Of a stretch of 35,129 nt of DNA, positions 5,248 through 20,822 are shown piece by piece. The translations under genes were made by a program, and so were the position numbers. The first letter of the stretch is position 1, and each line of letters begins with the position of its first letter. Source of the DNA: Pseudomonadota bacterium (GTDB taxonomy: Bacteria; Desulfobacterota; Desulfobacteria; Desulfobacterales; ETH-SRB1); contig JAHIKR010000064.1 in NCBI GenBank assembly GCA_018897415.1, positions 1 through 35,129 on the forward strand, written 5' to 3'. The notes under the pieces were generated by a model that ran no database searches, was not told where the DNA came from, and saw only the letters and a list, made by a program, of their open reading frames with translations.

Positions 5248-6288
5248 ATGTTAAACGATAAAACAATTTTGATTACCGGGGGAACTGGGTCATTGGGGAA
5301 AAAAATGACCCACATTATTTTGGAGAATTATACACCTGAAAAGCTTATTATCTTCAGCAGGGATGAGCTTAAGCAGTTTGAGATGTCTCAAAGATGGAGT
5401 ATGAAAAAGTATCCATGTATCCGCTATTTTCTGGGTGATGTAAGGGATAAGGATAGGCTCATTAGAGCTTTTAATGGTGTTGATTATGTCATTCATGCTG
5501 CAGCGCTTAAACAGGTTCCTGCGGCTGAGTATAATCCTGCAGAATGTATTAAAACAAACATATATGGTGCAATGAATGTTATTGATGCTGCACTTTTTAA
5601 CAATGTAAAGAAAGTCGTGGCCTTATCCACTGATAAAGCCTGCAATCCTATTAACTTATATGGAGCAACAAAGTTATGTTCAGATAAATTGTTTGTTGCA
5701 GCCAATGTCTATAGAGGATTTGATAAGGAGACAAGTTTTGCTGTCGTACGTTATGGTAATGTGCTTGGTAGTCGTGGCTCAGTGGTTCCATTTTTTAAGG
5801 AACGTTCTAAGACAGGCGTGCTTCCTATTACTGACCCCGACATGACACGCTTTTGGATTACCCTTGACCAGGCAGCTCATTTTGTACTCAAGGTTTTAGA
5901 ATTAGCAAAAGGGGGAGAAATCTTCGTTCCCAAGATTCCTTCCATGAAAATTACAGATCTGGCCAAAGCAATAGCTCCCGAGTGTTCACATAAAACCGTA
6001 GGTATTCGTCCTGGCGAGAAAATTCATGAAACCCTTATCGGAGAAGATGAAGGACGTAATGCTATAGAATATAAAGATTGTTACGTAGTAAGACAAGACC
6101 ACTTTGATGCTGAGAAAAGGCTCGATATCAATAATGGCGGCCGATCATGTCCAAAAGGATTTAGATATAGATCAGATAATAATCCTGAAAGATTAAGTAT
6201 TGAAGAATTAAAACAGACCTTAGAGCAAATCTCTGATGACTATAGTATTGAAAAAACACGTTGGTCAATGGACGATATTCCGCAATAA
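5248..6288 (+). CDS. pseB: UDP-N-acetylglucosamine 4,6-dehydratase, PseB/FlaA1 type (short soluble CapD-like SDR)
   Basis: 346 aa with N-terminal KTILITGGTGSLGKK. The catalytic block LSTDKACNPINLYGATKLCSDKLF has a Tyr-containing YGATK rather than the CapE/FnlA Met variant. Also has RYGNVLGSRGSVVP. Confidence 0.8.
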   Translation: MLNDKTILITGGTGSLGKKMTHIILENYTPEKLIIFSRDELKQFEMSQRWSMKKYPCIRYFLGDVRDKDRLIRAFNGVDYVIHAAALKQVPAAEYNPAECIKTNIYGAMNVIDAALFNNVKKVVALSTDKACNPINLYGATKLCSDKLFVAANVYRGFDKETSFAVVRYGNVLGSRGSVVPFFKERSKTGVLPITDPDMTRFWITLDQAAHFVLKVLELAKGGEIFVPKIPSMKITDLAKAIAPECSHKTVGIRPGEKIHETLIGEDEGRNAIEYKDCYVVRQDHFDAEKRLDINNGGRSCPKGFRYRSDNNPERLSIEELKQTLEQISDDYSIEKTRWSMDDIPQ

Positions 6289-6377: not shown

Positions 6378-7694
6378 ATGAAAATAGCAAAAAGTTTGAA
6401 GATGCAGAAGCGGGCAAGAAACAGGATACCCGGCATGACCCAATTGCTGTCAAAGCGTCCCGACATGTTTTCTTCAGGAGCTTGGCCAGGATATTATAGC
6501 AGAGCAAAAGGAGTAGAGATATGGGATTTGGATGGTAATCGGTATATAGATATGAGCCTTTCGGGCATCGGTACATGTATTCTTGGCTATGCCGATCCGG
6601 ACGTAAATCGAGCTGTCAAAGCTGCAATTGACGCAGGTTCAATGTCCACTTTGAATTGTCCCGAAGAAGTAGAGCTAGCAGATCTTCTTTGTAAGTTACA
6701 TCCCTGGGCCGAAATGGCCCGCTTCGCCCGTACGGGAGGCGAGGCAATGGCAATTGCCGTAAGGATAGCTCGTGCATATACTGGTAAGGACAAAATTGCC
6801 TTTTGCGGCTACCACGGGTGGCATGACTGGTATTTGGCTGCTAATTTAGGTACTGAAAATGCTTTAGGGGAACACCTCCTGACAGGGTTGAATCCAACTG
6901 GAGTCCCCAAAGGTTTAACGGGCACAGCTATTCCATTTCGCTACAATCATCTTGAAGAACTGCAAGCTATAGTTGAGAAAAACAGAAAAGACATAGCTGC
7001 TATCATTATGGAACCCATTCGCAATGTCCAACCACAACCCGGTTTTCTGGAAGGGGTAAGAGCTTTAGCTGACGAGATAGGAGCAGTCTTTATCATTGAT
7101 GAAATATCTGCTGCATTCAGAATGAACTCAGGGGGGGCACATCTTGTTTTTGGTATTTTACCCGATGTTGCGGTATTTTCCAAAGCATTGGGGAATGGCT
7201 ATCCAATAGCAGCTATAATAGGGAAGAGCCAGGTCATGGAAGCTGCTCAAAGCACATTTATTAGTAGCACTATGTGGACGGAACGTATAGGCCCTGCCGC
7301 AGCCTTGGCTACCATCAAGAAACATAAAGCTGTTGATGCAGGCAAGCACCTTATGGCTGTCGGAAAACAGATACAAGAAGGATGGACTCGTCTGGCGAAA
7401 AAGAATAACTTGAAAATAGATATTGGCGGGATCCCGCCACTCAGCCATTTTTCTTTTGAATATGATAATGCGCTATCAATGAAGGCTTTATTTGTTCAAT
7501 TGATGCTTGAACTGGGTTTTTTGGCATCGAATCTTTTTTATGCAATGTATGCCCACACAGAAGACCATGTAAGAAGCTATCTTGAAGGAGTTGATAAATC
7601 ATTTGAAAAAATAGCGCGCTCAATTGAGCACAACGATATCGATAAAAAACTCATTGGAGAACCTTCCAGTATCGGCTTTAAAAGACTTGCATAA
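6378..7694 (+). CDS. Class-III PLP aminotransferase (glutamate-1-semialdehyde 2,1-aminomutase-like)
   Basis: 438 aa with motifs ARFARTGGEAMAIAVRIARAYTG, IIDEISAAFR and FSKALGNGYP (candidate PLP lysine). These are typical of the HemL-like class-III family. Confidence 0.8.
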   Translation: MKIAKSLKMQKRARNRIPGMTQLLSKRPDMFSSGAWPGYYSRAKGVEIWDLDGNRYIDMSLSGIGTCILGYADPDVNRAVKAAIDAGSMSTLNCPEEVELADLLCKLHPWAEMARFARTGGEAMAIAVRIARAYTGKDKIAFCGYHGWHDWYLAANLGTENALGEHLLTGLNPTGVPKGLTGTAIPFRYNHLEELQAIVEKNRKDIAAIIMEPIRNVQPQPGFLEGVRALADEIGAVFIIDEISAAFRMNSGGAHLVFGILPDVAVFSKALGNGYPIAAIIGKSQVMEAAQSTFISSTMWTERIGPAAALATIKKHKAVDAGKHLMAVGKQIQEGWTRLAKKNNLKIDIGGIPPLSHFSFEYDNALSMKALFVQLMLELGFLASNLFYAMYAHTEDHVRSYLEGVDKSFEKIARSIEHNDIDKKLIGEPSSIGFKRLA

Positions 7695-7825: not shown

Positions 7826-8146
7826 ATGGACAAAAAAAGCAAAGATTTGATGGATTTTATTTCCGGGGCTATTGATCACTTAGATGTGAGCGGCTTTGAA
7901 GCGCTTGAAATTCTGGATGTTCGTAGTCGTCTTGCATCAAGGGAGCCTCTTCTTGATGAGCAGGACAGGGCGCGTCTGGAAAGATTGGACCGCCAGTTGC
8001 TGCAAATGGCAGATTCTCTAATAGAATGTATCTCAGAAGTTGCGAATCTGGCAGAAATGCGGAGAAGAGCACATATTCTTCCATCTCATTGGTGGTGGTA
8101 TCTGGATGGAATTACTTCTGACAACCGCAAGGTCGCCGAAGGATAG
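7826..8146 (+). CDS. Hypothetical protein (contains the SHWWWYLD motif)
   Basis: 106-aa ORF with protein-like composition. No family was recognised. An upstream overlapping 39-codon ORF (7731-7850) would fuse to it with +1 A in the A7 tract at 7832-7838. Confidence 0.4.
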   Translation: MDKKSKDLMDFISGAIDHLDVSGFEALEILDVRSRLASREPLLDEQDRARLERLDRQLLQMADSLIECISEVANLAEMRRRAHILPSHWWWYLDGITSDNRKVAEG

Positions 8147-8173
8147 CAGCTATGCTCCAAGCTCTTGCCTCTT

Positions 8174-8203
8174 CACTTAAAACTTAATCACTTAAAACTA
8201 AAA
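8174..8203 (+). repeat. Two units of the 15-bp motif CACTTAAAACTTAAT
   Basis: cacttaaaacttaat cacttaaaactaaaa. The same unit is tandemly repeated at 9000-9059, and the surrounding sequence (8161-8218) is also homologous to 8986-9075. Confidence 0.8.
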
Positions 8204-8296
8204 ACTATGCTTTCTTCCGGTAGGCTGAGGGTCAAAAAATGGAAATTAGTCTGAAAGCGTGTTGCAAGTCATATTTGCAAATGATAAACGGGATTT

Positions 8297-8608
8297 GTGA
8301 TGAAGGAAGTTAAGTTTACAGTAATGCTGACGCGAGAGGACAGATACCGCCACCACCATGTACGATTTAGAAAAGACGTTCTCAGTTTTGTCGTACAATA
8401 TGAGACAAAGGTGGAAGAAAAATGGCTTCCAGTCGTAAGATATGATACAAGGCATGGCTTTGCTCATCGGGATCTTTTGGATAAAAAGGGCGAAAAACAA
8501 AAGACGCCTATTCTTGCCGAAGACTACAGCGAGGCCCTGACATTTGCTGAATACGATATCAAATCTAATTGGAAAATGTACAAACAGCATTTCATGGTAG
8601 GAGGTTAG
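8297..8608 (+). CDS. Small hypothetical protein, first gene of a tightly coupled pair
   Basis: 103-aa ORF whose stop lies 1 nt before the next ATG. The motif VVRYDTRHGFAHRD is faintly reminiscent of the RYDN..HH motif of TumE/DUF6516-type toxins; this is unverified. Confidence 0.55.
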   Translation: MMKEVKFTVMLTREDRYRHHHVRFRKDVLSFVVQYETKVEEKWLPVVRYDTRHGFAHRDLLDKKGEKQKTPILAEDYSEALTFAEYDIKSNWKMYKQHFMVGG

Positions 8609-8609
8609 C

Positions 8610-8903
8610 ATGGAGACACGAGAAAACGAGTTCTTTACCAGGAATTCCGAATTAAGTATGGAGTTCAGCAAATATGTTTTGGAACATCCCGAGATGGACG
8701 ACCTGCTGACAGAAGAAGCGGTAGTTGTGTTCCTGCCAGAATTTGATGCAGAACTGGCGGATTTCAACTCAAGAATGGCAAAGGAAATTGAAGGTGAAGG
8801 CGGCAGGGTGCTTTATGTGAAGGTGAAACAGATGGCCCCGAAGATCTTTTCCAGGCTGATGGGGGTTGAAGTTGGAGTTGCACGGTCACAACTTGAACAT
8901 TGA
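8610..8903 (+). CDS. Small acidic hypothetical protein, second gene of the coupled pair
   Basis: 97-aa ORF starting 1 nt after the stop of the previous ORF, which implies translational coupling. No family was recognised with confidence. Confidence 0.55.
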   Translation: METRENEFFTRNSELSMEFSKYVLEHPEMDDLLTEEAVVVFLPEFDAELADFNSRMAKEIEGEGGRVLYVKVKQMAPKIFSRLMGVEVGVARSQLEH

Positions 8904-8999: not shown

Positions 9000-9059
9000 G
9001 CCTTAAAACTTAATCACTTAAAACTTAATCACTTAAAACTTAATCACTTAAAACTTAAC
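9000..9059 (+). repeat. Tandem repeat, 4 x 15 bp (CACTTAAAACTTAAT), ending 3 nt before the aldo/keto reductase ATG
   Basis: gccttaaaacttaat / cacttaaaacttaat / cacttaaaacttaat / cacttaaaacttaac, read directly from the sequence. Confidence 0.9.
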
Positions 9060-9062
9060 ACT

Positions 9063-9956
9063 ATGTTCTTTCCTCATCTTGTCTTAGGCACAGCGCAACT
9101 TGGTCTTCCCTATGGCTTAGCCAACAAGGTAGGGCAACCTGACCAGGCTGTTGCAATTACTATAATCCGTGAAGCTTGGAAAAATGGGATTAGGGAATTT
9201 GATACAGCTCAGGCATATGGGGACAGCGAAAAGGTTTTGGGGAAGGCTCTTTACGAATTGGGCATATCAAGCGAAGCAAAAATCATAACTAAATTCCATC
9301 CGAATTTGGATCATCTGAACGCTTCAGATATGTCGAGAGCCTTGGATGAATCTCTCGAAAGGCTTAGGGTCCGAAGTCTTTATGGTATTATGCTGCACAG
9401 GGAGGAAATGCTTTCCTTATGGAATAAAGGTTTAGCGAAAATTCTTCATGCCTTTATTTTGTCCGGTAGAGTTGAAAAAATAGGTATCTCCGTCTATTCA
9501 CCAGATAAAGCTATACAGGCTTTAAACACCGAAGGTATCAGTATGGTTCAACTTCCGACCAATATCGTGGATAGAAGATTTGAAAATACAGGCGTATTTA
9601 AGCTATCAGATGAAAAGAAAAAACAGATTTACATCAGAAGCGTTTTTCTTCAGGGGCTGCTACTAATGAATCCGGAAGAAATTTCGGATAAAATGTCATT
9701 TGTCAGGCCAATAATTAAAGAAATACAAACGATTTCAAATAATATTGGATTGTCACAGCAGGAAATAGCGCTGGGTTACGTGAAATCAGAGATGCCAAAC
9801 GCTCATGTGGTTTTTGGCGCAGAATCTTCTGAGCAGGTAAAGAGCAATATAGCCTGTTGGAGAAAAAACATTCAACAGAATCTGGTTGATATGATTAAAC
9901 GTAAATTTGATGATATTGACGAAGTTATTTTGAATCCTAATTTATGGCCAAAATGA
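9063..9956 (+). CDS. Aldo/keto reductase
   Basis: From the ATG at 9063 the protein reads MFFPHLVLGTAQLGLPYG...REFDTAQAYGDSEKVLGKAL, a typical AKR N-terminus. The ORF-track start at 8961 (TTG) would translate the 15-bp tandem repeat and is unlikely. Confidence 0.8.
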   Translation: MFFPHLVLGTAQLGLPYGLANKVGQPDQAVAITIIREAWKNGIREFDTAQAYGDSEKVLGKALYELGISSEAKIITKFHPNLDHLNASDMSRALDESLERLRVRSLYGIMLHREEMLSLWNKGLAKILHAFILSGRVEKIGISVYSPDKAIQALNTEGISMVQLPTNIVDRRFENTGVFKLSDEKKKQIYIRSVFLQGLLLMNPEEISDKMSFVRPIIKEIQTISNNIGLSQQEIALGYVKSEMPNAHVVFGAESSEQVKSNIACWRKNIQQNLVDMIKRKFDDIDEVILNPNLWPK

Positions 9957-10735
9957 TGAATATTGTTGCAATACTTCAAGCTAGGATGGGATCATCACGC
10001 CTGCCTGGGAAAGTGCTAAAGCCGATACTCGGCCGCCCAATGTTGGAACATCATATAGAGCGGATAAAACTGAGCAGTAAAATTAACCGAATAGTTGTCG
10101 CCACCAGCATTGATCCAGCGGATCAAGCAATTGTTGATCTCTGCCGGCAGATAGGAATAGAATCTTTTGAAGGTGAACTTGAAAATGTCCTAGATCGTTT
10201 TTACCAAGCAGCAAGACTATACAAATCGGATCATGTGGTTCGCTTGACCGGTGATTGTCCATTGGCTGATCCACATTTAATAGACGAATTAATTGATTTT
10301 TACTTCGTTCAGAAATGTGATTATGCCAGCAATTGTTATGAACCAACTCTGCCTGACGGGCTTGACGCCGAAGTTTTCTCCTTTGCAGTTCTGGAACAGG
10401 TATGGAAGGAAGCCGTGTTGCCATCCCATCTGGAACATGTTACCCCTTTTATTTACATGCATCCGGAAAGGTTTAAAATAAAGAGCCATAAGTATCATAC
10501 AGATTTATCACATCTCAGGTGGACGGTTGATGAATATGAGGATCTGGAATTTGTTAGGCGGATATATGAAATACTTTATCCTGTAAAACCAGATTTTTCG
10601 ATGAAAGATATTCTTCTCCTTCTTGAAAAAAATCCAGAACTTGCGGAAATCAACAGGCGTTTTAAAAGAAATGAGGGTGCGAAGAAGTCGATTGAAAAGG
10701 ATAAGCAATTTCTTGCGCAAAAGCACAGCCATTAG
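9944..10735 (+). CDS. SpsF-type cytidylyltransferase (CTP_transf_3 family; candidate CMP-nonulosonate synthetase)
   Basis: N-terminal AILQARMGSSRLPGKVLKPILGRPML, plus RLTGDCPL and a LRWTVDEYEDLEF tail. The start may be ATG 9944, 9953 or 9956, and it overlaps the AKR stop (9954-9956). Confidence 0.75.
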   Translation: MAKMMNIVAILQARMGSSRLPGKVLKPILGRPMLEHHIERIKLSSKINRIVVATSIDPADQAIVDLCRQIGIESFEGELENVLDRFYQAARLYKSDHVVRLTGDCPLADPHLIDELIDFYFVQKCDYASNCYEPTLPDGLDAEVFSFAVLEQVWKEAVLPSHLEHVTPFIYMHPERFKIKSHKYHTDLSHLRWTVDEYEDLEFVRRIYEILYPVKPDFSMKDILLLLEKNPELAEINRRFKRNEGAKKSIEKDKQFLAQKHSH

Positions 10736-10759: not shown

Positions 10760-12871
10760 ATGGAAAGAGAAAAAATTACTATATATCTTGCAGAATTGGC
10801 TCACAATGGTTTTGGACTTAGCTTGAATACCATTCCCTTGGGTATAGGAAGTGTTGGAGCCTACAGCAAAAATAAATATGGTAATCAAATTGAAATACGT
10901 TTGTTCAGACAATTTGAAGACTTAATGAATGCTATATCAGATTTGCCGCCACATATTGTTGGCTTAGGATATTTTACATGGAATGACAATTTGACGCTTG
11001 CGGCCTTAAAATGTGTGAGGGAAATCAGTCCCGATACCCTGATTGTTCTCGGTGGCCTCAACATAACTATTAAAGGGTGGGAGAACACAACAAATAACGT
11101 TACCTCTAAAAAAAGGAAACCTTGTGATGAATACGCAAGAAAATATGATTTTACACTGCTTAATAATAATGCAGATATCGATATTATTGTACATGGAGAT
11201 GGGGAGGTTCCCTTTTCAAACATTATAGAAAAAATGATGGATTCCGCAAATCGATTACAAGTAAAAAGCCAGCCTATCGATGGGTGTACTACATTAGTTG
11301 ATGGAAATTTACTTGCAGGCAAAGTGGTTTCACCTTTGCTTGACCTGGATGTTATACCTTCTCCTTATATAATGGGCTTATATGCTGAATTGTTTGAACG
11401 ATATCAGTTAGTCCCTCAAGTTGAGTCTGTAAGGGGATGTCCTTACAATTGCACCTACTGTACGATTGGCGGAAATATTAATAAGCTGAGAAAACATAGT
11501 TTAGAATATATTAAGGAGGAGATCTTATTTCTTAAAGACAACAGCCCTAACAGAATTTTAAGAATAGCGGATTCAAATTGGGGTATTCTGAAAAGAGATG
11601 TCGAGTTGGCCGAGTTTATCAGGGAATTACATAATTCCACTGGCTACCCAAGTTCATTGAGAGTCTATTACGCAGAAAAAGGCCCTTTTGAAAATGTAAG
11701 AAGAATGGCGAAGACACTGAAGACTTTGCTGCCTTTGAATATGAGCTTCCAGACCTTAACAAAGGAAGTTTTGAAAAATGTTAAAAGACAAAACATGCCG
11801 ATTTCTAAGGTTAAGGAAATGGTTAAATTTGCTCATAGCAATAATATATCCGTTTCTACTGAACTTATTTCTGGACTACCAGGAGAAACATATCAGTCTT
11901 TCAGGGATGTATTCTTGGAAACCGTAAAGCTCAACTTTGATAGCGTTTATGTTGGCACCCTTTATTTAACAAAGGGTGCAGAATTATATACGGATAGAGC
12001 TAGGAAACAGTACGGTTTGAAGACAAAATATGTACTTCTCGGCAATAATATTACAAAACTTAATTCTCGTTATGTCATTGACGCAGATGAAGTTGTGACC
12101 GAGTCAAATAGAATATCTCTGAACGATTTTTGGGGACTTCATAAGTTCAATTTTTTTATTTTTTCATGTTATGGTGCAGCGTTCTTGAAAGAGATCATTA
12201 TGCACTGTATCAATTATCAGATAACGCCATTAGACCTATATGATGAATTATGTGAAAGGCCTGATTGTTACCCGTTTTTTAACGAAATCGCCGACAAATA
12301 CATGACAACTGTGAAAACAAAATACTTTGACACGAGAGAAGAACTTGAGGAAGCGGTATCAAAAACTATTAAGAAAAATGGTAATATTAATGAATTCAGC
12401 GTATATAGGCAGTGTTTTTATCGCCTTGGAAGGATTGCTAGTAGCCGATACAAACATTTATTTATCTCTGATTTTGTAAAATCTGCACGCTCAATTTATG
12501 ATAAAAATAGAAACAAGAATGAAGATGATAAATTTCACTCCATTCTGGATATGCTTGGTGATTTAGCAATAGATGTAATAATTTCGCCCCTGGAAGAAGT
12601 AAAAAAGGAAATTGTAAGATCATATAACTATGATTTAATAACATGGGCAAAGGACGATTATAAAAAACCTTTATCGGGATATAATTTAAAAAAAACAAGA
12701 AGGTTTTCGCTATGCGTCAGAAATATAAATGAGCATAGAGAATTATCTAATAAGACAAAAGGTTGGGGTGACTTAGAAAAATATGCATTTTATTTTACAA
12801 CTGTTGTTTCATCTAATATGAGGCGCTTAATTAAATATACTCATCGCGAAGACAGCGCCATCATTGAATAG
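10760..12871 (+). CDS. B12-binding-domain radical SAM enzyme (class B-like), large 700-aa form
   Basis: CxxxCxxC cluster RGCPYNCTYC with a preceding cobalamin-binding-like Rossmann region (IVGLGYFTW...LIVLGG). The ATG at 10760 follows GGAGA (10749-10753); the ORF track begins at TTG 10754. The gene is visibly more AT-rich than its neighbours. Confidence 0.8.
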   Translation: MEREKITIYLAELAHNGFGLSLNTIPLGIGSVGAYSKNKYGNQIEIRLFRQFEDLMNAISDLPPHIVGLGYFTWNDNLTLAALKCVREISPDTLIVLGGLNITIKGWENTTNNVTSKKRKPCDEYARKYDFTLLNNNADIDIIVHGDGEVPFSNIIEKMMDSANRLQVKSQPIDGCTTLVDGNLLAGKVVSPLLDLDVIPSPYIMGLYAELFERYQLVPQVESVRGCPYNCTYCTIGGNINKLRKHSLEYIKEEILFLKDNSPNRILRIADSNWGILKRDVELAEFIRELHNSTGYPSSLRVYYAEKGPFENVRRMAKTLKTLLPLNMSFQTLTKEVLKNVKRQNMPISKVKEMVKFAHSNNISVSTELISGLPGETYQSFRDVFLETVKLNFDSVYVGTLYLTKGAELYTDRARKQYGLKTKYVLLGNNITKLNSRYVIDADEVVTESNRISLNDFWGLHKFNFFIFSCYGAAFLKEIIMHCINYQITPLDLYDELCERPDCYPFFNEIADKYMTTVKTKYFDTREELEEAVSKTIKKNGNINEFSVYRQCFYRLGRIASSRYKHLFISDFVKSARSIYDKNRNKNEDDKFHSILDMLGDLAIDVIISPLEEVKKEIVRSYNYDLITWAKDDYKKPLSGYNLKKTRRFSLCVRNINEHRELSNKTKGWGDLEKYAFYFTTVVSSNMRRLIKYTHREDSAIIE

Positions 12872-12907
12872 CTGGATTTAGATTACATAAAATGCAAGCA
12901 AATTTAA

Positions 12908-13216
12908 TCATCCGCACATGATCAAGGAAAGAATCGACATCGAAGTGAGCTCTGCACGCTTTATATGTGCGAAAATCCGAAAAAGTTTTATCTTCAACGT
13001 CTTCATCCGGAATCGTCTAAGGTCCAGAGGCCTGATATTCGCTTAACCGTAGATTATCCGGAGGATTTAATCGTTGCACGAGAGGTTTATGAATTTCTTA
13101 AAAAACCGGGCGAATACATTAATGTTGCAGACATTATTGATTATATGGATGCCTATCCAAAATTGAAAGAATTGAACGGATGGATTGACGCCGGTATAGG
13201 AAGAATATGGAATTAG
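12908..13216 (+). pseudogene. C-terminal fragment of a second SpsF-type cytidylyltransferase
   Basis: The open frame reads ...SELCTLYMCENPKKFYLQRLHPESSKVQRPDIRLTVDYPEDLIVAREVYEFL. This parallels SHLEHVTPFIYMHPERFKIKSHKYHTDLSHLRWTVDEYEDLEFVRRIYEIL of the intact gene at 9944-10735. The N-terminal two thirds are absent. Confidence 0.65.
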
Positions 13217-13388
13217 AAGAAACAGTTATGACATGCAAGTATATTCTGAAAGACCAGGTAGAAGATGCAATCACTTAAGTATACCACATTAAGATACTCC
13301 ATCTGAACATTTCAAGAACTGATTTGTCAGTTCATAAATACACTTTCAGTGAAAAGATAAGCAATAATAATATTCAGGAAGGGTCATC

Positions 13389-15155
13389 ATGAATTTTAGC
13401 ACTTTTAACATGCATTTCAAAATTAACATGCGTTTCAAAAGATGGGTTAGAAAGTGGATACTCAGCGAGCATCTGTTTCGGAAGATTAGGCTTTATCGTT
13501 ACGACAAACTCCAGAAATTCTGGTTAGGCCACCCCCCGGTACCTGCACCTCCCTTCGAGACAAGCTATTTTAGAAAAGCAAATTTAGACCCACGTGTGGT
13601 TCGTCGTCTGGATGATTATCGATCCGCTGTAGTTGTAACAGGAAAAACCGAATTGCCTATTGAGAAGCGGAACGGAAAATCGTCAATTCAATTTGCAATA
13701 AGTCCGGCAAGAGATTGGGTTCCCGATAAGTTAGTTCGTTTTAAAATTGGTGGACACGAAACTCTTATTCGAGAAATACCGGTGGATCGGTGGTTCGATG
13801 TGCGCTTGGATCTTGAGGATGAAGACAAAACGTTGATTGTTGAACCAGATGCACCGGTTGAAATAACTATGCCGAGGCTCGTAAAAAATCCTATTCTGGA
13901 AAAGAATAGAAAGGAGATACGCCATATAGTCGTTTGCGTACTGGATGCATGGTCAACGGCCACTGTAAATGAAAAACATCCTATGACAGGGGAAAATAGC
14001 TTGACGCCTAATATAGATCGTTTTTTTTCGCAAGGCTTGTGTGCAAGAAAGGGTATATCAAGCGGGCAATGGACGTTGCCGGCTGTTGGTACTCTGTTCA
14101 CCGGGTTGCATGTTTCGCGTCATAAAATGACACATCCATGGCGCTGGCAGGAATTTGATCGTAATCGTCGAACATTGCCTGAATATTTTCAACATGCCGG
14201 TTATCATACCTTGTGTGGGTCCGTTGTGTCGCGGGTTACACCCGCATTTGGTCACAATCGGGGCTTTGATCGCTTCCTGTATCATTTTCCGGGATTTTCA
14301 TACCAGACTTATGATCCCGCTGTCTGGATACAGGAAATTATCGGTCATATGGAGGCACATTATGGAGATCGGACGTTCAGCTATTTCCAGTTTCCTGATA
14401 CCCATCCCTCGTGGGACATTGCCCCCGAAACGAGATATTTTCATTTATGCCGTCGTGGAAACACGTCGTCAAATCTTAAACAGTTGATGACATCAAAGGC
14501 TTCGAAAATTTTTGACATACCTAACCAAGCTCAACAATTATATTCTTTAAGACTCGCTGAGATCGACAGGATGCTTGGCTGCATTTTTGATTATGTAGAA
14601 AGAAAATTCGAAGAAGAAGCCCTTATCGTTGTGACAGCAGATCATGGTATGCGAATGCCGTATATGAGCGAAGCCCATCAAAACGATGAACCTTTCCTGA
14701 CAGATATTCGAGTTAATATCCCTCTATTCATGCGTGGTCTCGGCGTTCCCGTATGCTCTTATGACGGATTATGTCCGCCAAATCTTGATCTGCCTTTAAC
14801 TCTCTTAAATCTGGCAGGTCTAAAACCGGACTTAGATGATTTTGACGGTACAAACGTCCTGGATCGGATCAGTCTCCAAAAAGAATGTGTTATAAGTGAA
14901 TATGTTTACGCAGGAATCTACGAACTTGCAGTTAGAGGCTATGGCCACGCATTATTTTTAAAATTCGAGATCGACGACAAAGCATATAAGATTCTTTCAA
15001 GAGAACCGATATACATAGGACTATATTCGCTTAATACAGCTTCATACGGGAAAGATAACGATTTAATAAACGAAAAACCTGATGTTTTCGAAACTCTTCG
15101 CAAGGTTGCAATTGATCATATTAACAACATAGGTCTGATGGAGAATATCGGATGA
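13389..15155 (+). CDS. Alkaline-phosphatase-superfamily enzyme (phosphodiesterase/NPP- or sulfatase-like) with an N-terminal extension of about 170 aa
   Basis: Metal-site-like VCVLDAWS. The nucleophile region is QWTLPAVGTLFTG (T-x-P, not the C/S-x-P-x-R of FGly sulfatases). VVTADHGM is also present. RBS AGGAAGG. The stop overlaps the next gene's start (ATGA). Confidence 0.7.
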   Translation: MNFSTFNMHFKINMRFKRWVRKWILSEHLFRKIRLYRYDKLQKFWLGHPPVPAPPFETSYFRKANLDPRVVRRLDDYRSAVVVTGKTELPIEKRNGKSSIQFAISPARDWVPDKLVRFKIGGHETLIREIPVDRWFDVRLDLEDEDKTLIVEPDAPVEITMPRLVKNPILEKNRKEIRHIVVCVLDAWSTATVNEKHPMTGENSLTPNIDRFFSQGLCARKGISSGQWTLPAVGTLFTGLHVSRHKMTHPWRWQEFDRNRRTLPEYFQHAGYHTLCGSVVSRVTPAFGHNRGFDRFLYHFPGFSYQTYDPAVWIQEIIGHMEAHYGDRTFSYFQFPDTHPSWDIAPETRYFHLCRRGNTSSNLKQLMTSKASKIFDIPNQAQQLYSLRLAEIDRMLGCIFDYVERKFEEEALIVVTADHGMRMPYMSEAHQNDEPFLTDIRVNIPLFMRGLGVPVCSYDGLCPPNLDLPLTLLNLAGLKPDLDDFDGTNVLDRISLQKECVISEYVYAGIYELAVRGYGHALFLKFEIDDKAYKILSREPIYIGLYSLNTASYGKDNDLINEKPDVFETLRKVAIDHINNIGLMENIG

Positions 15156-15739: not shown

Positions 15740-16671
15740 AAGTCGTTATTGCTGGAGTGAGTGGTCTCCTTGGAAGTAATCTGGTCATGACCATGAGGGG
15801 CAAATTCGATACTGTCGGGACATATAATCAAAATAAAATAGGTTTTGATGGTATTTGTATGGAGAACATGGACATTACTTCGGGTGAAGAAGTTAACAGT
15901 ACTATCTTGAGCGCTATGCCAGATATTTTAATCCATTGTGCTGCTGAAACTCGAGTTGATCATTGCGAGGAGTATCCTGGAGACGCCTTCCGTGTTAATG
16001 TTGAAGGTACATCAAACTTAGCTCTTGCAAGTGCCAAGGCAGGTGCAAAAATGATTTATATTTCCACGGATTCTGTATTTGATGGTCTAAAGGGGAACTA
16101 CAGCGAAAAAGACGAGACAAATCCCGTAAATGTTTACGCTCAGACAAAACTTGAGGGAGAAAAAGCCGTAAAAAAATACTGCGATAATTATCTGATCCTC
16201 CGAACCAATATTTACGGTTGGAACGCAAGGTCAAAATCGAGTTTAGCCGAATGGGTTCTAAATCGTTTGAAAAGCGGTGATCGAAAAATTCCTGGCTTCG
16301 GGGATGTTTTTTTTTCACCCATGTTAGTTAATGATCTGGCTCATATTATTGAAAAGATGATAGGAGCTGATTTGCGGGGGCTGTTTCACGTCGGAGCAAG
16401 CGATAAGTGCAGCAAACTCGATTTTGCCAGAATGATCTGCAGGGTCTTTGATGAAAACTCAAGGCGTGTAGTCCCGAGCAATTCGGATACTATTAATTTC
16501 AGAGCTCGCCGTCCCAAAGATACTTCTCTGAATGTTACGAAGGTTACTCTCGAATTGGAAAATGCAATGCCTACTGTTGTAGAAGGATTAAGACATTTTC
16601 GAGAGCTCTTGGATAGTGGTTACGTTGATCAACTGAAGGCGATTGTGATGAATCAGGAGGTTTCATTATGA
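15736..16671 (+). CDS. RmlD-like NAD(P)-dependent sugar 4-ketoreductase (SDR)
   Basis: From the ATG at 15736 it reads MKVVIAGVSGLLGSNL. It also has YISTDSVFDG and YAQTKLEGE (YxxxK). The ORF-track start 15718 lies inside the GNAT gene. There is an ATGA overlap with the GNAT stop. Confidence 0.75.
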   Translation: MKVVIAGVSGLLGSNLVMTMRGKFDTVGTYNQNKIGFDGICMENMDITSGEEVNSTILSAMPDILIHCAAETRVDHCEEYPGDAFRVNVEGTSNLALASAKAGAKMIYISTDSVFDGLKGNYSEKDETNPVNVYAQTKLEGEKAVKKYCDNYLILRTNIYGWNARSKSSLAEWVLNRLKSGDRKIPGFGDVFFSPMLVNDLAHIIEKMIGADLRGLFHVGASDKCSKLDFARMICRVFDENSRRVVPSNSDTINFRARRPKDTSLNVTKVTLELENAMPTVVEGLRHFRELLDSGYVDQLKAIVMNQEVSL

Positions 16672-17744
16672 ATAAAATGCATATCGCCGATCGCTCAATT
16701 GGAGATGGAGAGCCCACTTATTTCATAGCAGATATTGCGGCCAATCACGATGGGAGTCTGGATAGGGCCAAAAAATTGATCTGTCTGGCAAAGGAAGCCG
16801 GGGCAGATGCAGTAAAATTTCAAAATTTCGAAGCCAGGAAAATAGTCAGCAAACAGGGATTTGAATCGCTGGGTGGTCAAGCATCTCATCAGACTAAGTG
16901 GAAGAAGTCTGTCTTCGAAGTTTATGAGGATGCTTCCATTCCCTCCTCGTGGACTGTAAAACTCTGTGAGTTTTGTAAAGATACGGGGATTCATTATTTT
17001 TCTTCTCCCTATGACTTTGAAGCTGTGGATATGTTAGAACCATTTGTGCCGGCTTATAAGATCGGTTCGGGGGACATTACTTGGCCGGAAATGCTTCGAA
17101 AGATTTCAGCTAAAGGCAAGCCGGTTCTTTTAGCTACGGGAGCTTCGGATATAAATGAAGTGCGTGACGCGGTAAATATCATAAAATGTATCAATCCAAA
17201 TTTGGTTTTGATGCAGTGTAATACAAATTATACGGGGAGCCTGGAAAACTTCAGATACATTAATTTAAATGTTCTTAAAACCTTTAAAGACAAGTTCCCA
17301 GATGTAGTATTGGGTTTATCGGATCATACCCTTGGATATGTAACAGTATTGGGGGCTGTTGCATTGGGGGGGCGGGTAATAGAAAAACATTTCACTGACG
17401 ACATGAGTCGAGAAGGACCGGACCATGTTTTTTCAATGATACCTGAGGCATGGGCAGAAATGGTGCTACGTACACGAGAACTTGAAGATGCACTCGGGGG
17501 AAAGGAAAAGCGGGTGGAAGATAATGAACAGGAAACCGTGATCCTGCAGAGACGATGTCTGCGCGCGAAACAAAATCTGAAAATTGGAACAATTCTTACC
17601 AGACACTTGATTGATGTTTTAAGACCGGCACCGAGAGATGCTATTTCCCCTTATGATGTTGATCGGATGATCGGAATGCGGTTAATGGTTGATTTGCCGG
17701 AAGGCGAATATTTTAAATGGTCATATTTAGAAACGGTAAATTAA
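16668..17744 (+). CDS. NeuB-family nonulosonic acid synthase (PseI/LegI/NeuB/SpsE type)
   Basis: YFIADIAANHDGSLDRAKKLICLAKEAGADAVKFQ, a GLSDHT motif, and a C-terminal SAF-like domain. ATGA overlap with the upstream reductase. Confidence 0.85.
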   Translation: MNKMHIADRSIGDGEPTYFIADIAANHDGSLDRAKKLICLAKEAGADAVKFQNFEARKIVSKQGFESLGGQASHQTKWKKSVFEVYEDASIPSSWTVKLCEFCKDTGIHYFSSPYDFEAVDMLEPFVPAYKIGSGDITWPEMLRKISAKGKPVLLATGASDINEVRDAVNIIKCINPNLVLMQCNTNYTGSLENFRYINLNVLKTFKDKFPDVVLGLSDHTLGYVTVLGAVALGGRVIEKHFTDDMSREGPDHVFSMIPEAWAEMVLRTRELEDALGGKEKRVEDNEQETVILQRRCLRAKQNLKIGTILTRHLIDVLRPAPRDAISPYDVDRMIGMRLMVDLPEGEYFKWSYLETVN

Positions 17745-18899: not shown

Positions 18900-20822
18900 A
18901 TGATTATTTGCGTCAATTGCAACGGTAATATCACGACAGAGGAAAGTCCGGTCTATCAGTCCAGGAATGTTTTCGTTTTCAGTAAAGAAGACTATGAAAA
19001 ATTTATACTGGCGGATGAGTCCATTCTTTTTCTTTGGGGGGAGGTTTACGCTATATGCATGCCGAATGGTACTTATATTTCCATTGATCTCAAGACACAC
19101 GAAAGGGATATTGTAAATTTTTTTAGTAATTATTCCATCGATCAGGCAATTGATAAAATTGAGGGTAATTTTGTAGGATTGTTGATCAGGAATGGCGAAA
19201 TCGCCATCTTTGGCGATGAATTTAACAGGAAAGAACTTTTCTATAGAAAAATAAATGATGGAATTATTGCTTCCACAAACTTAAAGGCTGTCATAAAAAC
19301 AATTGATACAATCCGTTATTCCCAGAATGTTCTTGTAAATTTGCTTACCATATATGGGTATTATGCACCTAAAAAGCACACGATTTATAGAGATGTTTAT
19401 CGTCTTGGTGTTGGGGAACGATTACATTTTTCGTTAGGGAGCTTGACCGTAGAGAAAAAACCATTTGAGCCACTTAAGACAGGATCTTTTGGAATTAAAG
19501 AACACAATGAATATGTTGAGATTATGAGGAGCGCTGTTGAAATTCGCGCTTCATCACATTGTAACTGGATATTTATGTCCAGTGGATTTGATTCAAGTTC
19601 TATACTTGCTCTTCTCGTAGAAAAGTATGGGCCAGAAAAGGTGCGGTGTGTTGTAGGACGGATGAAATACTCAGAACGCGCCGGAGTCATCAATCAATTC
19701 GAGCTGGATAGAGCACATAAAATTGCTGAGTATTTTGGAGTACGAATTGATCAGGTGGATTTCGACTTTACAGGGCAAAAATCCGTCGAGTCATGGAAGC
19801 AGACGATTCCTCTCTTAAGAGATCAGCATCTATATGCTTATTCGGCTTATAATTTTTATCATTTGGCAAAATATGTCGCTGACAATGGAAATAGCGATGA
19901 TGCGGTCTTTGTCGGTGCTGTCAGCGATGGGGTTCATAATTTAGGTTTTGCCCAGTTTGCCACGATTCTCGAACATCCTGACATCGGATTTCGAGAATAC
20001 AGCGATAAAATGGCCTCTTATCTTTTCGGGCCAAGCTTTTTTAAGCGAATACTCGAAGGTGATATAGAAAATGATTTTGTGTATCAAATCATGAAGAGTC
20101 GTTCGGACGGAGCTGAGTTTTATAATATTAAGAAGATGGATGAATATGAGAAAAAAATAAAATTTCTTGAGTCTTTCTTCCACCGCAATCGTAGGATACC
20201 ATTCCTCAAACTTAAGAACATTTCTCTGGTTACTCAAGGTGGTGCAGAGTCTTTTGAAAATGAAATGGCAAACATATACTTAAAAGAAGTGGCAGAGAAA
20301 TTGATACCCGAAACAGTCTATTCATGCATACTGTATCTTTACAATAGTTATTTTTGGCAGGGAAGCACAGAGAGGTCAACGAACGCAGGGGCGTTGGATG
20401 TAATGGGCAAGACGATTACTTCTCCTTACTGGGATGGACGATTACATCGCTTCTTGAGTAAAATGCCTGAAGACTGGGGACGTGGGCTTGAACTCCGGCC
20501 AACAAAGTACCCCCTAAAGTGGATGTTGCAGAATGCGGTTGATTATCCCCTTCATCTGCAAACTGGACCTCATTCCTATCTATATGATGTGAATCCACAG
20601 TTTAGCCATACGAGCGAGTTTTTGTTTGGCTCGGCCTTAAAATTTTATTTGCAGGAAATCCTCAAAAACCGTCCTTATGAGGAAATTTTAGAGAGCAGCT
20701 ATTTTAATTTGGAATATATCAATTCAATTGTCGATGAATACGTTGCTGGTAGAGAATTCAGCGGTGCCAAAATGAATGACCTTCTCGCAATCGCAAATCT
20801 TTGCCTGATAGGCTGGTATTGA
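18900..20822 (+). CDS. Asparagine-synthetase-B-like ATP-dependent amidotransferase/amidoligase
   Basis: PP-loop variant IFMSSGFDSSSILALL with an AsnB-like layout over 640 aa. The N-terminus (MIICVNC) lacks the usual Met-Cys nucleophile arrangement. Confidence 0.65.
   Translation: MIICVNCNGNITTEESPVYQSRNVFVFSKEDYEKFILADESILFLWGEVYAICMPNGTYISIDLKTHERDIVNFFSNYSIDQAIDKIEGNFVGLLIRNGEIAIFGDEFNRKELFYRKINDGIIASTNLKAVIKTIDTIRYSQNVLVNLLTIYGYYAPKKHTIYRDVYRLGVGERLHFSLGSLTVEKKPFEPLKTGSFGIKEHNEYVEIMRSAVEIRASSHCNWIFMSSGFDSSSILALLVEKYGPEKVRCVVGRMKYSERAGVINQFELDRAHKIAEYFGVRIDQVDFDFTGQKSVESWKQTIPLLRDQHLYAYSAYNFYHLAKYVADNGNSDDAVFVGAVSDGVHNLGFAQFATILEHPDIGFREYSDKMASYLFGPSFFKRILEGDIENDFVYQIMKSRSDGAEFYNIKKMDEYEKKIKFLESFFHRNRRIPFLKLKNISLVTQGGAESFENEMANIYLKEVAEKLIPETVYSCILYLYNSYFWQGSTERSTNAGALDVMGKTITSPYWDGRLHRFLSKMPEDWGRGLELRPTKYPLKWMLQNAVDYPLHLQTGPHSYLYDVNPQFSHTSEFLFGSALKFYLQEILKNRPYEEILESSYFNLEYINSIVDEYVAGREFSGAKMNDLLAIANLCLIGWY

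What the first reader, a model, noticed from the sequence alone, without database searches (positions are those of the whole stretch)
10760..13216. Large B12-radical SAM gene sits where most of a second SpsF-type cytidylyltransferase gene used to be
Immediately after the intact cytidylyltransferase (9944-10735) comes a 704-aa cobalamin-type radical SAM gene that is more AT-rich than its neighbours. After that comes only the C-terminal third of another SpsF-type gene (12908-13216). This fragment is recognisable by ...CTLYMCENPKKF...IRLTVDYPEDL, compared with ...HVTPFIYMHPERF...LRWTVDEYEDL in the intact gene. It is too diverged to be a recent copy of the intact gene. This implies a recombination event that brought the radical SAM gene in and deleted the 5' part of a resident or incoming paralogue. 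A class-B radical SAM enzyme in a nonulosonic-acid operon suggests unusual chemistry on the sugar or its N-acyl group, such as C-methylation or other radical tailoring. To my knowledge this is not part of any characterised NulO pathway.
Basis: partly seen in the sequence, partly recalled or inferred. Interest (0 to 1): 0.7.

Follow-up and report, generated by a model that had tools for sequence, protein, structure and literature searches.

The report
Radical SAM cassette with SpsF scar
A vitamin-B12-type radical SAM methylase gene, found elsewhere only inside gene clusters that make sialic-acid-like nine-carbon sugars, has here replaced most of a second sugar-activating gene and left its last ~100 codons as a scar; the enzyme probably methylates the sugar, a step not yet described for this sugar class.

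Summary
Bases 10760-12871 encode an intact 703-aa radical SAM protein. Bases 12914-13216 are the last ~100 codons of a second SpsF-type cytidylyltransferase (75% identical to full-length 248-aa relatives, 32% to the intact neighbour).

The radical SAM protein is a full-length sequence and fold relative of TokK and CysS, which are cobalamin-dependent, iterative sp3 C-methylases. It keeps their Trp under the corrin and TokK's carboxylate-binding Arg.

Its close homologues (44-79% identity) lie in seven independent loci. All seven sit in the same NeuB / SpsF / class-III aminotransferase / aldo-keto reductase clusters. More distant relatives do not (2 of 80).

Comparative loci show two alternative cassettes in one slot: [SpsF1-rSAM] or [NeuB'-SpsF2]. 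None of 80 SpsF2 loci carries this rSAM. The window has the SpsF1-rSAM cassette plus the 3' stump of SpsF2, still joined to SpsF2's native downstream sulfatase-family gene.

The AT-richness of the rSAM gene is a family trait, not evidence of recent arrival.

The chemistry (C-methylation of a nonulosonic acid or its acyl group) is inferred, not shown. I found no paper linking radical SAM enzymes to these sugars.

The parts
6378..7694 (+). Class-III (GSA-aminomutase-like) aminotransferase; left-flank member of the conserved cassette context
   Evidence: PF00202, 153.9 bits. 81% identical to the L101 orthologue and 72-74% to L001/L004.
9063..9956 (+). Aldo-keto reductase; left flank. A possible left crossover lies near its 3' end.
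   Evidence: PF00248, 115.9 bits. 75% identical to L101 overall, falling from ~85% to 50% towards the C-terminus.
9944..10735 (+). Intact SpsF1-type cytidylyltransferase (putative CMP-nonulosonate synthetase), the conserved partner of the rSAM gene
   Evidence: PF02348, 112.7 bits. 69% identical to the SpsF gene immediately upstream of the rSAM gene in L001-L006. Belongs to a clade separate from SpsF2.
10760..12871 (+). TokK/CysS-like cobalamin-type radical SAM protein, 703 aa (putative sp3 C-methyltransferase)
   Evidence: The AF2 model has pLDDT 90. Foldseek gives TokK TMq 0.73 / TMt 0.77 and CysS 0.68 / 0.75.
10979..10981 (+). Trp74 codon, equivalent to TokK Trp76, which lies under the corrin
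   Evidence: Invariant in all 26 family members of alignment A1. The TokK preprint (doi 10.1101/2021.07.10.451909) reports this Trp as conserved only in TokK, ThnK and CysS.
11438..11461 (+). CX3CX2C [4Fe-4S]-cluster motif (Cys227, Cys231, Cys234)
   Evidence: Invariant columns in alignment A1. Codons verified.
11660..11662 (+). Arg301 codon, aligned with TokK Arg280, which binds the substrate carboxylate
   Evidence: Alignments. Invariant in the 17 closest family members, variable in distant ones, and Trp in CysS. The role of Arg280 comes from the TokK preprint.
12872..12913 (.). Recombination junction between the end of the rSAM gene and the start of detectable SpsF2 homology. It contains an in-frame TAA at 12905-12907.
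   Evidence: DNA similarity to five full-length SpsF2 genes begins at 12914 in every case and is at random level upstream.
12914..13216 (+). 3' remnant of an SpsF2-type cytidylyltransferase gene (codons ~149-248 of ~248). The residual ATG ORF 12965-13216 (83 aa) has no Shine-Dalgarno sequence.
13389..15155 (+). Sulfatase / alkaline-phosphatase-superfamily gene, the native downstream neighbour of SpsF2
   Evidence: PF00884, 66.1 bits. In L099 and L100 a 62-63% identical gene directly follows a full-length SpsF2.
16668..17744 (+). NeuB-type nonulosonate synthase, which defines the pathway context
   Evidence: PF03102, 244.7 bits. 65% identical to the L007 NeuB.
5248..6288 (+). PseB-type UDP-GlcNAc 4,6-dehydratase (inverting); pathway entry step
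   Evidence: TIGR03589, 499.9 bits against a cut-off of 407.75.

Best explanation
The window is a surface-polysaccharide locus built around a nonulosonic-acid (NulO) pathway. It contains PseB, a class-III aminotransferase, an aldo-keto reductase, a GNAT acetyltransferase, an RmlD-like reductase, NeuB and an SpsF-type CMP-sugar synthetase.

In this type of locus, the slot after the aldo-keto reductase holds one of two alternative cassettes: [NeuB'-SpsF2] or [SpsF1-rSAM].

Proposed event (inferred): the ancestor of this contig had the NeuB'-SpsF2-sulfatase arrangement. A recombination then put SpsF1-rSAM in its place. The right-hand crossover fell inside SpsF2 just after the rSAM stop codon. Codons ~149-248 of SpsF2 were left as a non-functional stump, still attached to the sulfatase-family gene.

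The rSAM protein (fold shown, chemistry inferred): it is a three-domain cobalamin-dependent radical SAM enzyme of the TokK/ThnK/CysS/KedN5 type. By analogy, one SAM methylates cob(I)alamin. A second SAM is cleaved at the [4Fe-4S] cluster to 5'-deoxyadenosyl radical, which abstracts a hydrogen from an unactivated sp3 carbon. That carbon then takes a methyl from methylcobalamin, possibly more than once.

The substrate is most likely the carboxylate-bearing nonulosonic acid (free or CMP-linked) or its N-acyl group. The product would then be activated by the co-inherited SpsF1.
For: Shown: fold and family of the rSAM protein.
- The family profile hits TokK at E=2.9e-80 and CysS at E=7e-73.
- The AF2 model (pLDDT 90) superposes on TokK and CysS over all three domains (TM 0.68-0.77). 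The next-best structures (OxsB, TsrM) reach only ~0.45.
- The best NCBIfam match is the KedN5 family.
- CX3CX2C and the TokK-Trp76 equivalent are invariant. The TokK-Arg280 equivalent is invariant in the NulO-linked subfamily.

Shown: linkage of the rSAM gene to NulO clusters.
- Seven independent loci carry close homologues: the window, L001-3, L004-6, L007, L093, L094 (an Elusimicrobia genome) and L095.
- All seven contain ATIII, AKR, an SpsF1-type gene and NeuB.
- Only 2 of 80 loci with relatives at <=31% identity have NeuB.

Shown: cassette logic.
- L001 reads ATIII-AKR-SpsF1-rSAM-AP_endonuc_2-NeuB.
- L118 and L101 read ATIII-AKR-(x)-NeuB'-SpsF2-AP_endonuc_2-...-NeuB.
- None of 80 SpsF2 loci has this rSAM.
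- SpsF1 and SpsF2 are distinct clades, 22-30% identical between them.

Shown: the scar.
- The stump is 75% identical to full-length SpsF2 genes, and homology begins at 12914 in all five comparisons.
- SpsF2 followed by the sulfatase gene is a native adjacency in L099 and L100.
- The stump has no internal stops. pN is 0.19 against a saturated pS of 0.8-0.9. It has no Shine-Dalgarno sequence.

Inferred: the direction of the event, methyl transfer, and the identity of the substrate.
Against: - No biochemical data exist for any member of this subfamily.
- Class-B radical SAM enzymes also catalyse non-methylating reactions (OxsB, BchE, HpnJ, AprD4-like enzymes).
- TokK Trp215 is not conserved; the window has Ile.
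- The KedN5 NCBIfam cut-off is missed by a wide margin (150 bits against 700).
- The Pfam B12-binding match is below threshold.
- TokK and CysS act on pantetheine-linked substrates (descriptions). I recognised no carrier-protein gene in the window.
- In L007, L093 and L095 the rSAM gene sits after NeuB, next to an Asn-synthase-like gene and a PFTS-motif gene. Its target could therefore be another part of the glycan.
- The left crossover is not resolved. AKR similarity to L101 only fades towards the 3' end.
- The closest rSAM homologues (P0002-P0004, 70-79% identity) could not be examined for the same scar.
Confidence: 0.62

Rival explanations
1. Local deletion, not import. An ancestor carried both modules in tandem (…SpsF1-rSAM-…-NeuB'-SpsF2-sulfatase…). 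A single deletion then removed everything from just after the rSAM gene to the middle of SpsF2.
For: A deletion leaves the same stump and the same single junction (12872-13913 region). The left crossover expected for a replacement is not sharply visible. L094 shows that two SpsF-type genes and extra NeuB copies can coexist in one locus.
Against: None of 80 SpsF2 loci and none of 7 rSAM loci shows SpsF1-rSAM and an intact SpsF2 of this clade side by side. Both flanks of the window resemble SpsF2-type loci most closely (L101 on the left, L099/L100 on the right). That pattern is the signature of a replaced middle segment.
Confidence: 0.2
2. The rSAM protein is not a NulO C-methylase. Either it carries out another class-B reaction (rearrangement, dehydration, cyclisation), or it methylates a different substrate of the same polysaccharide pathway. 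That substrate could be another sugar, an acyl side chain on a carrier, or an O-methyl group as in CysS/KedN5.
For: Class-B enzymes are functionally diverse (family list; OxsB and AprD4). TokK Trp215 is not conserved. The gene's position varies and is often next to the Asn-synthase-like and PFTS genes. The related loci carry varied acyl- and methyl-modifying genes, such as FkbH, TylF-type methyltransferases and formyltransferases.
Against: The only close structural and sequence relatives are the iterative methylases TokK and CysS, with a large gap to non-methylases. Trp74 and the carboxylate-binding Arg301 are conserved. The only genes present in all seven loci are the NulO core genes and SpsF1.
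Confidence: 0.25
3. The 83-aa ORF (12965-13216) is a functional small protein, a stand-alone SpsF C-terminal domain, rather than a dead remnant.
For: The ORF is intact. pN (0.14-0.19) is far below pS. An 83-aa ORF with the same start (P0124, 72% identical) occurs in L008-L010, where the sequence upstream of it has decayed. Several other short forms break near the same HRSELCTLYM motif.
Against: There is no Shine-Dalgarno sequence. The nucleotide-binding N-terminal 60% of the protein is missing. Nearly all of the 80 SpsF2 loci carry the full 248-aa gene. Many of the 'short' database entries are artefacts of contig ends, scaffold gaps or long-read frameshifts. The low pN/pS can equally reflect constraint that acted before a recent truncation. 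The ORF itself was not found as a called protein in the database search.
Confidence: 0.07
4. The junction is a metagenome-assembly chimera that joins two strains' loci.
For: The window is a MAG contig. Polysaccharide loci vary between strains.
Against: Graph assemblers join sequences at shared k-mers, which would give intact or hybrid genes. Here an rSAM 3' end is fused to the middle of an unrelated gene, with no shared sequence at the join. The identical rSAM protein is recorded on 5 contigs from four sources.
Confidence: 0.05

Closest known systems
TokK / ThnK (carbapenem C6 alkylation; PDB 7KDX, 7KDY)
   Same: Three-domain architecture: Cbl-binding Rossmann domain, radical SAM core, and the large C-terminal domain. 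Profile E=2.9e-80. TMq 0.73 / TMt 0.77 over the full length. The CX3CX2C motif, the Trp under the corrin (TokK W76 = W74 here) and the substrate-carboxylate Arg (R280 = R301 here) are all present.
   Different: Only ~20% identity in the structural alignment. TokK Trp215 is replaced by Ile/Val. The genomic context is a surface-sugar (NulO) cluster, not a beta-lactam pathway. No pantetheinylated substrate is evident. Activity is untested.
CysS (cystobactamid) and KedN5 (kedarcidin): iterative methylation of an O-methyl group; PDB 9N1B-D; NCBIfam NF033712
   Same: E=7e-73. TM 0.68/0.75. KedN5 is the best NCBIfam family, at 150 bits over residues 136-387. The Trp74 equivalent is shared.
   Different: The score is far below the NF033712 cut-off (700). 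CysS has Trp where this family and TokK have Arg. The loci have no aromatic or PCP-bound substrate genes.
Class-B radical SAM methylases acting on sugars and phosphonates (GenK, GenD1, Fom3). This comparison rests on my own knowledge.
   Same: The same general chemistry: cobalamin-mediated methylation of an unactivated sp3 carbon, on a carbohydrate-type substrate.
   Different: These enzymes were not retrieved as close relatives here. PhpK- and Sden_1168-type matches are weak. They act in antibiotic pathways, not in cell-surface NulO pathways.
SpsF / LegF / PseF-type CMP-nonulosonate synthetases (CTP_transf_3, PF02348). B. subtilis SpsF is required for transfer of legionaminic acid to the spore surface (PMC7439481).
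   Same: The intact 9944-10735 gene is a full member. The stump aligns with residues 151-242 of that fold. Its parent clade includes full-length 248-aa proteins and NeuB-SpsF fusions.
   Different: The stump lacks the whole nucleotide-binding N-terminal part, so it cannot be a cytidylyltransferase. SpsF1 and SpsF2 are only 22-30% identical. Their sugar specificities are unknown.
Gene remnants at cassette junctions in O-antigen and capsule loci. This is general knowledge of polysaccharide-locus evolution, not tested here.
   Same: A mosaic locus in which conserved flanks surround alternative central cassettes, with a truncated gene marking the crossover.
   Different: No IS element or repeat was seen at this junction. 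The exchanged unit pairs a sugar-activating enzyme with a radical SAM tailoring enzyme.

Membership tests
Radical SAM superfamily (PF04055) | CX3CX2C motif ligating a [4Fe-4S] cluster, and a Pfam score above the gathering threshold | tested here: met
   Cys227, Cys231 and Cys234 are invariant. PF04055 scores 55.4 bits against a cut-off of 29.5.
Class B (cobalamin-dependent) radical SAM enzymes | N-terminal Rossmann-type cobalamin-binding domain | tested here: met
   Pfam B12-binding scores only 24.7 bits against a cut-off of 32.1, so Pfam alone is inconclusive. However, the AF2 model superposes on TokK and CysS including the N-terminal domain, and the profile alignment covers TokK residues 65-480.
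Class B (cobalamin-dependent) radical SAM enzymes | Actually binds cobalamin and uses methylcobalamin as the methyl donor | not testable with these tools
   This needs purified protein, UV-vis/EPR spectroscopy and activity assays.
TokK/ThnK/CysS clade of iterative methylases | Trp on the lower face of the corrin (TokK Trp76), reported as conserved only in this clade | tested here: met
   Trp74 aligns with TokK Trp76 and is invariant in 26 of 26 sequences.
TokK/ThnK/CysS clade of iterative methylases | Active-site Trp after the cluster motif (TokK Trp215, CxxCDW) | tested here: not met
   The window has CTYCTIG. Ile or Val occupies this position in the NulO-linked subfamily. Trp appears only in some distant members.
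TokK/ThnK/CysS clade of iterative methylases | Shared large C-terminal substrate-binding domain | tested here: met
   The Foldseek alignment spans ~733 columns with TMt 0.75-0.77. OxsB and TsrM, whose C-terminal domains differ, reach only 0.43-0.59.
KedN5 family (NCBIfam NF033712) | Score above the curated cut-off of 700 bits | tested here: not met
   150.4 bits, covering only residues 136-387. The protein is related to this family but is not a member.
CTP_transf_3 / SpsF cytidylyltransferase (for the 12914-13216 fragment) | Homology to the family | tested here: met
   hhalign gives 99.8% probability, E=2.9e-29. The full-length relative P0143 passes PF02348 (30.2 bits against 22.6). The fragment alone gives no Pfam hit.
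CTP_transf_3 / SpsF cytidylyltransferase (for the 12914-13216 fragment) | Complete catalytic fold with the N-terminal nucleotide-binding region | tested here: not met
   Only residues equivalent to ~149-248 of 248 remain. The upstream DNA is the rSAM gene and is unrelated. The fragment is therefore a remnant, not a functional member.
Canonical pseudaminic-acid pathway (PseB, C, H, G, I, F) | All six enzymes present | tested here: not met
   PseB is met (TIGR03589, 499.9 bits against 407.75). NeuB-type and GNAT genes are present. No DegT-type PseC or PseG-type gene was found among the large ORFs of the window. The PseF model matches SpsF1 only weakly (E=1.6e-7). This is a NulO-type pathway of uncharacterised variant composition.
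NulO-cluster-associated rSAM subfamily (as defined here) | Conserved neighbourhood with NeuB, SpsF1, a class-III aminotransferase and an aldo-keto reductase | tested here: met
   7 of 7 independent loci at >=44% identity show this neighbourhood. Only 2 of 80 distant relatives have NeuB.

The most novel reading that the evidence does not exclude
This ~700-aa subfamily is the first radical SAM enzyme of nonulosonic-acid biosynthesis. It would be a cobalamin-dependent, possibly iterative, C-methylase. It would build a C-methylated or chain-extended sugar or N-acyl group (for example acetyl to propionyl to isobutyryl, or methylation at C3 or C9) on a sialic-acid-like sugar. It would travel with its own dedicated CMP-sugar synthetase (SpsF1) as an exchangeable cassette. 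Such a cassette would let anaerobic sediment bacteria from several phyla swap surface-sugar chemistry.
Probability: 0.45. Interest if true: 0.7.

Novelty: new variant of a known kind. Interest (0 to 1): 0.55.

Why it matters
Nonulosonic acids (sialic, pseudaminic and legionaminic acids and their relatives) decorate flagella, capsules, LPS and S-layers. They shape recognition by immune systems and by phages. As far as I know and could find, every known tailoring step uses polar chemistry: N-acylation, amidination, O-acetylation or O-methylation.

A conserved TokK/CysS-type cobalamin radical SAM enzyme in these clusters predicts carbon-carbon bond formation on the sugar or its acyl group. That would mean a new family of NulO structures and a new substrate class for a group of enzymes so far known from antibiotic pathways.

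The scar also gives a clear example of how such loci diversify. A tailoring enzyme and its matched activating enzyme move together and displace an alternative synthase-plus-activator pair.

The truncated gene itself is an ordinary recombination remnant.

Tried and rejected
- **Direct Pfam and NCBIfam scans of the fragment.** These gave no hit. The Pfam model barely covers the C-terminal third of the protein. Pairwise, profile-profile and full-length-relative tests settled the question instead.

- **Genome-contig scan with the rSAM alignment.** It returned only relatives at <=31% identity. These served only as a negative control for NeuB linkage.

- **A natural family of short (83-177 aa) SpsF-C-terminal proteins.** All 22 word-index hits were short, which suggested this idea. 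I rejected it because:
  - L012 is cut by a contig end;
  - L008 has a run of N;
  - L097 and L098 are long-read assemblies with frameshifts whose N-terminal parts lie in other frames;
  - L011 is frameshifted;
  - the exhaustive search and the metagenome scan found full-length 248-aa genes.

- **AT-richness as a sign of recent transfer.** Rejected, because the rSAM gene is lower in GC than its locus in all six related loci.

- **The rSAM gene next to SpsF2 in L114.** It is HpnJ-like and belongs to an unrelated subfamily.

- **Promoter and terminator scan around the junction.** Nothing exceeded shuffled expectation.

- **dN/dS.** Synonymous sites are saturated, so only the statement that pN is far below pS is usable.

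- **Literature.** 'radical SAM' plus 'nonulosonic' returned 0 papers. 'radical SAM' plus 'pseudaminic' returned 5 papers, none of which looked relevant from their titles and abstract openings (not read). A search on the SpsF / GSA-aminotransferase / aldo-keto triad and a search on cobalamin radical SAM plus polysaccharide both returned nothing relevant.


Full report
**1. What is in the sequence**

The window is one whole 35,129-bp MAG contig. The identical rSAM protein, P0001, is recorded as 'radical SAM protein [Proteobacteria bacterium]' with a longest contig of 35,129 bp. Nearly all large ORFs lie on the + strand and form a surface-polysaccharide locus. The genes, in order, are:

- a MarR-EPS regulator;
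- a PglF-like dehydratase;
- PseB (TIGR03589, 499.9 bits against a cut-off of 407.75);
- a class-III aminotransferase;
- an aldo-keto reductase;
- an SpsF-type cytidylyltransferase (9944-10735; PF02348, 112.7 bits);
- the radical SAM gene;
- the fragment;
- a sulfatase-family gene;
- a GNAT acetyltransferase;
- an RmlD-like reductase;
- NeuB (PF03102, 244.7 bits);
- glycosyltransferases;
- an Asn-synthase-like protein;
- a PFTS-motif protein;
- a flippase;
- a Kdo-like module further on.

The rSAM ORF runs 10760-12871 (703 aa) and has a GGAG Shine-Dalgarno sequence. The fragment's frame is open over 12908-13216. Its first ATG is at 12965 (83 aa) and has no Shine-Dalgarno sequence.

**2. The fragment is a real remnant of a second SpsF paralogue**

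The evidence runs from weakest to strongest:

- It gives no direct Pfam hit.
- It matches the intact neighbour at 32% identity, E=6e-7. It matches the SpsF genes of seven other loci at a similar level.
- Its nearest relatives are 75% identical, E=3e-45.
- An exhaustive HMMER search places it on residues 149-248 of a 248-aa protein, P0143. P0143 passes the CTP_transf_3 threshold and aligns end to end with the intact neighbour.
- A profile-profile comparison of the fragment's family with the SpsF1 family gives 99.8% probability, E=2.9e-29. Fragment residues 1-95 align with SpsF residues 151-242.
- At the DNA level, similarity to five full-length genes starts at 12914 in every case. Upstream it is at random level.
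- There are no internal stops. pN is 0.19 while pS is saturated. Either the truncation is recent relative to the clade's divergence, or the stump is still constrained. I favour a recent truncation because there is no ribosome-binding site and the catalytic N-terminus is missing.

**3. What the radical SAM protein is**

The Pfam Radical_SAM match is clear. The Pfam B12-binding match is sub-threshold. The best NCBIfam family is KedN5, a methylcobalamin-dependent C-methyltransferase family. The score is 150 bits, far below the family's cut-off of 700.

Comparison with solved structures is more informative:

- A 26-sequence family profile hits TokK at E=2.9e-80 and CysS at E=7e-73. Nothing else scores better than 1e-10.
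- The AlphaFold model (pLDDT 90, pTM 0.88) superposes on TokK (TMq 0.73 / TMt 0.77) and on CysS (0.68 / 0.75) over all three domains. OxsB and TsrM reach only ~0.45.

The TokK structure paper (bioRxiv 10.1101/2021.07.10.451909) highlights three residues:

- Trp76 lies under the corrin and is conserved only in TokK, ThnK and CysS. Here the equivalent is Trp74, invariant in 26 of 26 sequences.
- Arg280 binds the substrate carboxylate. Here the equivalent is Arg301. It is invariant in the 17 closest members and variable in distant ones. CysS has Trp at this position.
- Trp215 is not conserved here. The equivalent position is Ile or Val.

The protein is therefore a new subfamily within the TokK/CysS/KedN5-type cobalamin methylases. 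It is not a member of any named family.

**4. Linkage to nonulosonic-acid genes**

Close homologues (44-79% identity) were located on contigs from seven independent lineages. One of these is a 2.76-Mb Elusimicrobia contig (GCA_016721625.1). Every one of the seven lies within 10 kb of NeuB, an SpsF1-type gene, the class-III aminotransferase and the aldo-keto reductase.

The position of the rSAM gene varies between two arrangements:

- directly after SpsF1 (the window and L001-L006);
- after NeuB and before the trio of Asn-synthase-like gene, PFTS gene and flippase (L007, L093, L095).

Of 80 relatives at <=31% identity from GTDB genomes, only two have a NeuB gene nearby.

**5. How the stump arose**

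A metagenome scan with the fragment's family returned 80 loci. Local tblastn on them shows three things.

(a) Nearly all of the 80 carry the full-length 248-aa SpsF2 gene, usually next to a NeuB paralogue (NeuB') and a class-III aminotransferase.

(b) None carries the TokK-like rSAM. The one rSAM seen, in L114, is HpnJ-like.

(c) In L099 and L100 a full-length SpsF2, 73-75% identical to the stump, is followed directly by a sulfatase-family gene. That gene is 62-63% identical to the one downstream of the stump in the window.

Gene orders in related loci:

| Locus | Gene order |
|---|---|
| L101 | DegT - ATIII (81% to window) - AKR (75%) - acyltransferase - NeuB' - SpsF2 - AP_endonuc_2 - … - NeuB |
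| L118 (L103 and L104 look similar by tblastn) | ATIII - AKR - x - NeuB' - SpsF2 - AP_endonuc_2 - NeuB |
| L001 | ATIII - AKR - SpsF1 - rSAM - AP_endonuc_2 - NeuB |

Between the same flanks, then, the slot holds either [NeuB'-SpsF2] or [SpsF1-rSAM]. SpsF1 and SpsF2 are separate clades: 37-69% and 39-82% identical within each, 22-30% between them.

The window has SpsF1-rSAM plus the last 40% of SpsF2, still attached to SpsF2's native neighbour. The simplest reading is a cassette replacement whose right-hand crossover fell inside SpsF2, 1-42 bp after the rSAM stop codon. The left crossover is not sharp. AKR identity to L101 falls from ~85% to 50% towards its 3' end, without switching to any sampled donor. 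A single deletion in a locus that once held both cassettes cannot be excluded.

The lower GC of the rSAM gene (0.349 against 0.391 for the window) recurs in all six related loci. It says nothing about timing.

**6. Mechanism**

Shown: the fold, the cofactor-site residues, the conserved pathway context, and the pairing with a dedicated SpsF1.

Inferred from TokK and CysS: one SAM methylates cob(I)alamin. A second SAM gives 5'-deoxyadenosyl radical at the [4Fe-4S] cluster. This radical abstracts a hydrogen from an sp3 carbon of the substrate. The substrate radical then takes a methyl from methylcobalamin. The closest characterised relatives all repeat this step two or three times.

The conserved Arg301 fits a carboxylate-bearing substrate, and every nonulosonic acid has a carboxylate. 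Candidate positions are:

- the N-acetyl methyl group, which is alpha to a carbonyl like C6 in TokK's substrate;
- C3;
- the C9 methyl group.

I cannot discriminate among these. Alternative targets are the glycan's other sugars or an acyl chain on a carrier.

**7. Novelty**

No paper in the library combines 'radical SAM' with 'nonulosonic'. Five combine it with 'pseudaminic', and none looked relevant from their titles and abstract openings; I did not read them.

The enzyme class is well known. Its recruitment to sialic-acid-like sugar pathways appears undescribed, and so does the mobile SpsF1-rSAM pairing. The truncated gene is an ordinary recombination scar, though a usefully informative one.

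**Verdict:** observation confirmed; interpretation supported, with the corrections above; interest moderate (0.55).

Noticed in passing
window 28314-31995: A second, unrelated B12-binding radical SAM gene lies at 30601-31995 (464 aa; PF02310 58.5 bits and PF04055 81.2 bits; weakly HpnJ/BchE-like). Its GC is very low (0.30). It sits directly after a CBS-domain gene, a KdsA-like DAHP_synth_1 gene (28713-29570) and a KdsB-like CTP_transf_3 gene (29619-30389). The locus therefore pairs two different cobalamin radical SAM enzymes with two different ulosonic-acid modules. L095 also has CBS, DAHP_synth_1 and CTP_transf_3 downstream, and L093 has another rSAM gene after the flippase.
   Followed up: partly
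window 9002-9062 and 8175-8206: A 15-bp tandem repeat (CTTAAAACTTAATCA, 4.1 copies, 97% match) lies immediately upstream of the aldo-keto reductase ATG at 9063. It reads as LKLNH repeats in the TTG-extended ORF. A related 7-bp repeat (ACTTAAA, 4.4 copies) lies at 8175-8206. These could be a phase-variation or regulatory element.
   Followed up: no
window 7826-8903: Three small genes are inserted between the aminotransferase and the aldo-keto reductase: orf106, DUF7718 (8297-8608) and DUF5647 (8610-8903). In L001-L006, L101 and L118 those two genes are adjacent. The insert has no PADLOC hit. It may be a small mobile or toxin-antitoxin-like module.
   Followed up: partly
window 13389-15155, 24418-25437, 25493-26056: The same locus holds a sulfatase / alkaline-phosphatase-family protein, a pyruvate-kinase barrel-only protein and an APS kinase. 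Together they hint at sulfation or phospho-group modification of the glycan.
   Followed up: no
window 169-1927: The left end carries an AAA_14/DUF4143 ATPase that matches the PADLOC candidate system PDC-S01 (297.8 bits). A PD-(D/E)XK (PDDEXK_3) protein follows it.
   Followed up: no
window 18900-24324; L001, L007, L093, L095: A trio recurs downstream of the rSAM-type NulO clusters: an Asn-synthase-like protein (~640 aa), a PFTS-motif polysaccharide protein (~660 aa, TIGR04417) and a Polysacc_synt flippase. It sometimes lies directly after the rSAM gene. A functional tie to the rSAM enzyme is possible.
   Followed up: partly
P0144, P0146 and other ~576-600-aa hits: The SpsF2 clade includes natural fusions of NeuB (N-terminal) and SpsF (C-terminal); for example, P0144 is 585 aa. 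This supports the idea that NeuB' and SpsF2 form a functional pair.
   Followed up: partly
L008-L010 (83-aa ORF at L008 3589-3840); L011 2052-2520; P0128: Other loci hold degraded SpsF2 copies. L008-L010 keep an 83-aa ORF with the same MCENP start, while the upstream sequence is unrelated or decayed. The N-terminus of P0128 also stops matching just before SELCTLYM. L011 is truncated at its 5' end and frameshifted, and it lies near a DDE transposase. Breakpoints cluster within ~10 codons of the HRSELCTLYM motif, and I have no explanation for this.
   Followed up: partly
L096 7758-8534: The 3' part of SpsF2 occurs twice in inverted orientation: 8010-8501 on the + strand and 7994-7758 on the - strand. 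This is either an assembly palindrome or a real inverted duplication.
   Followed up: no
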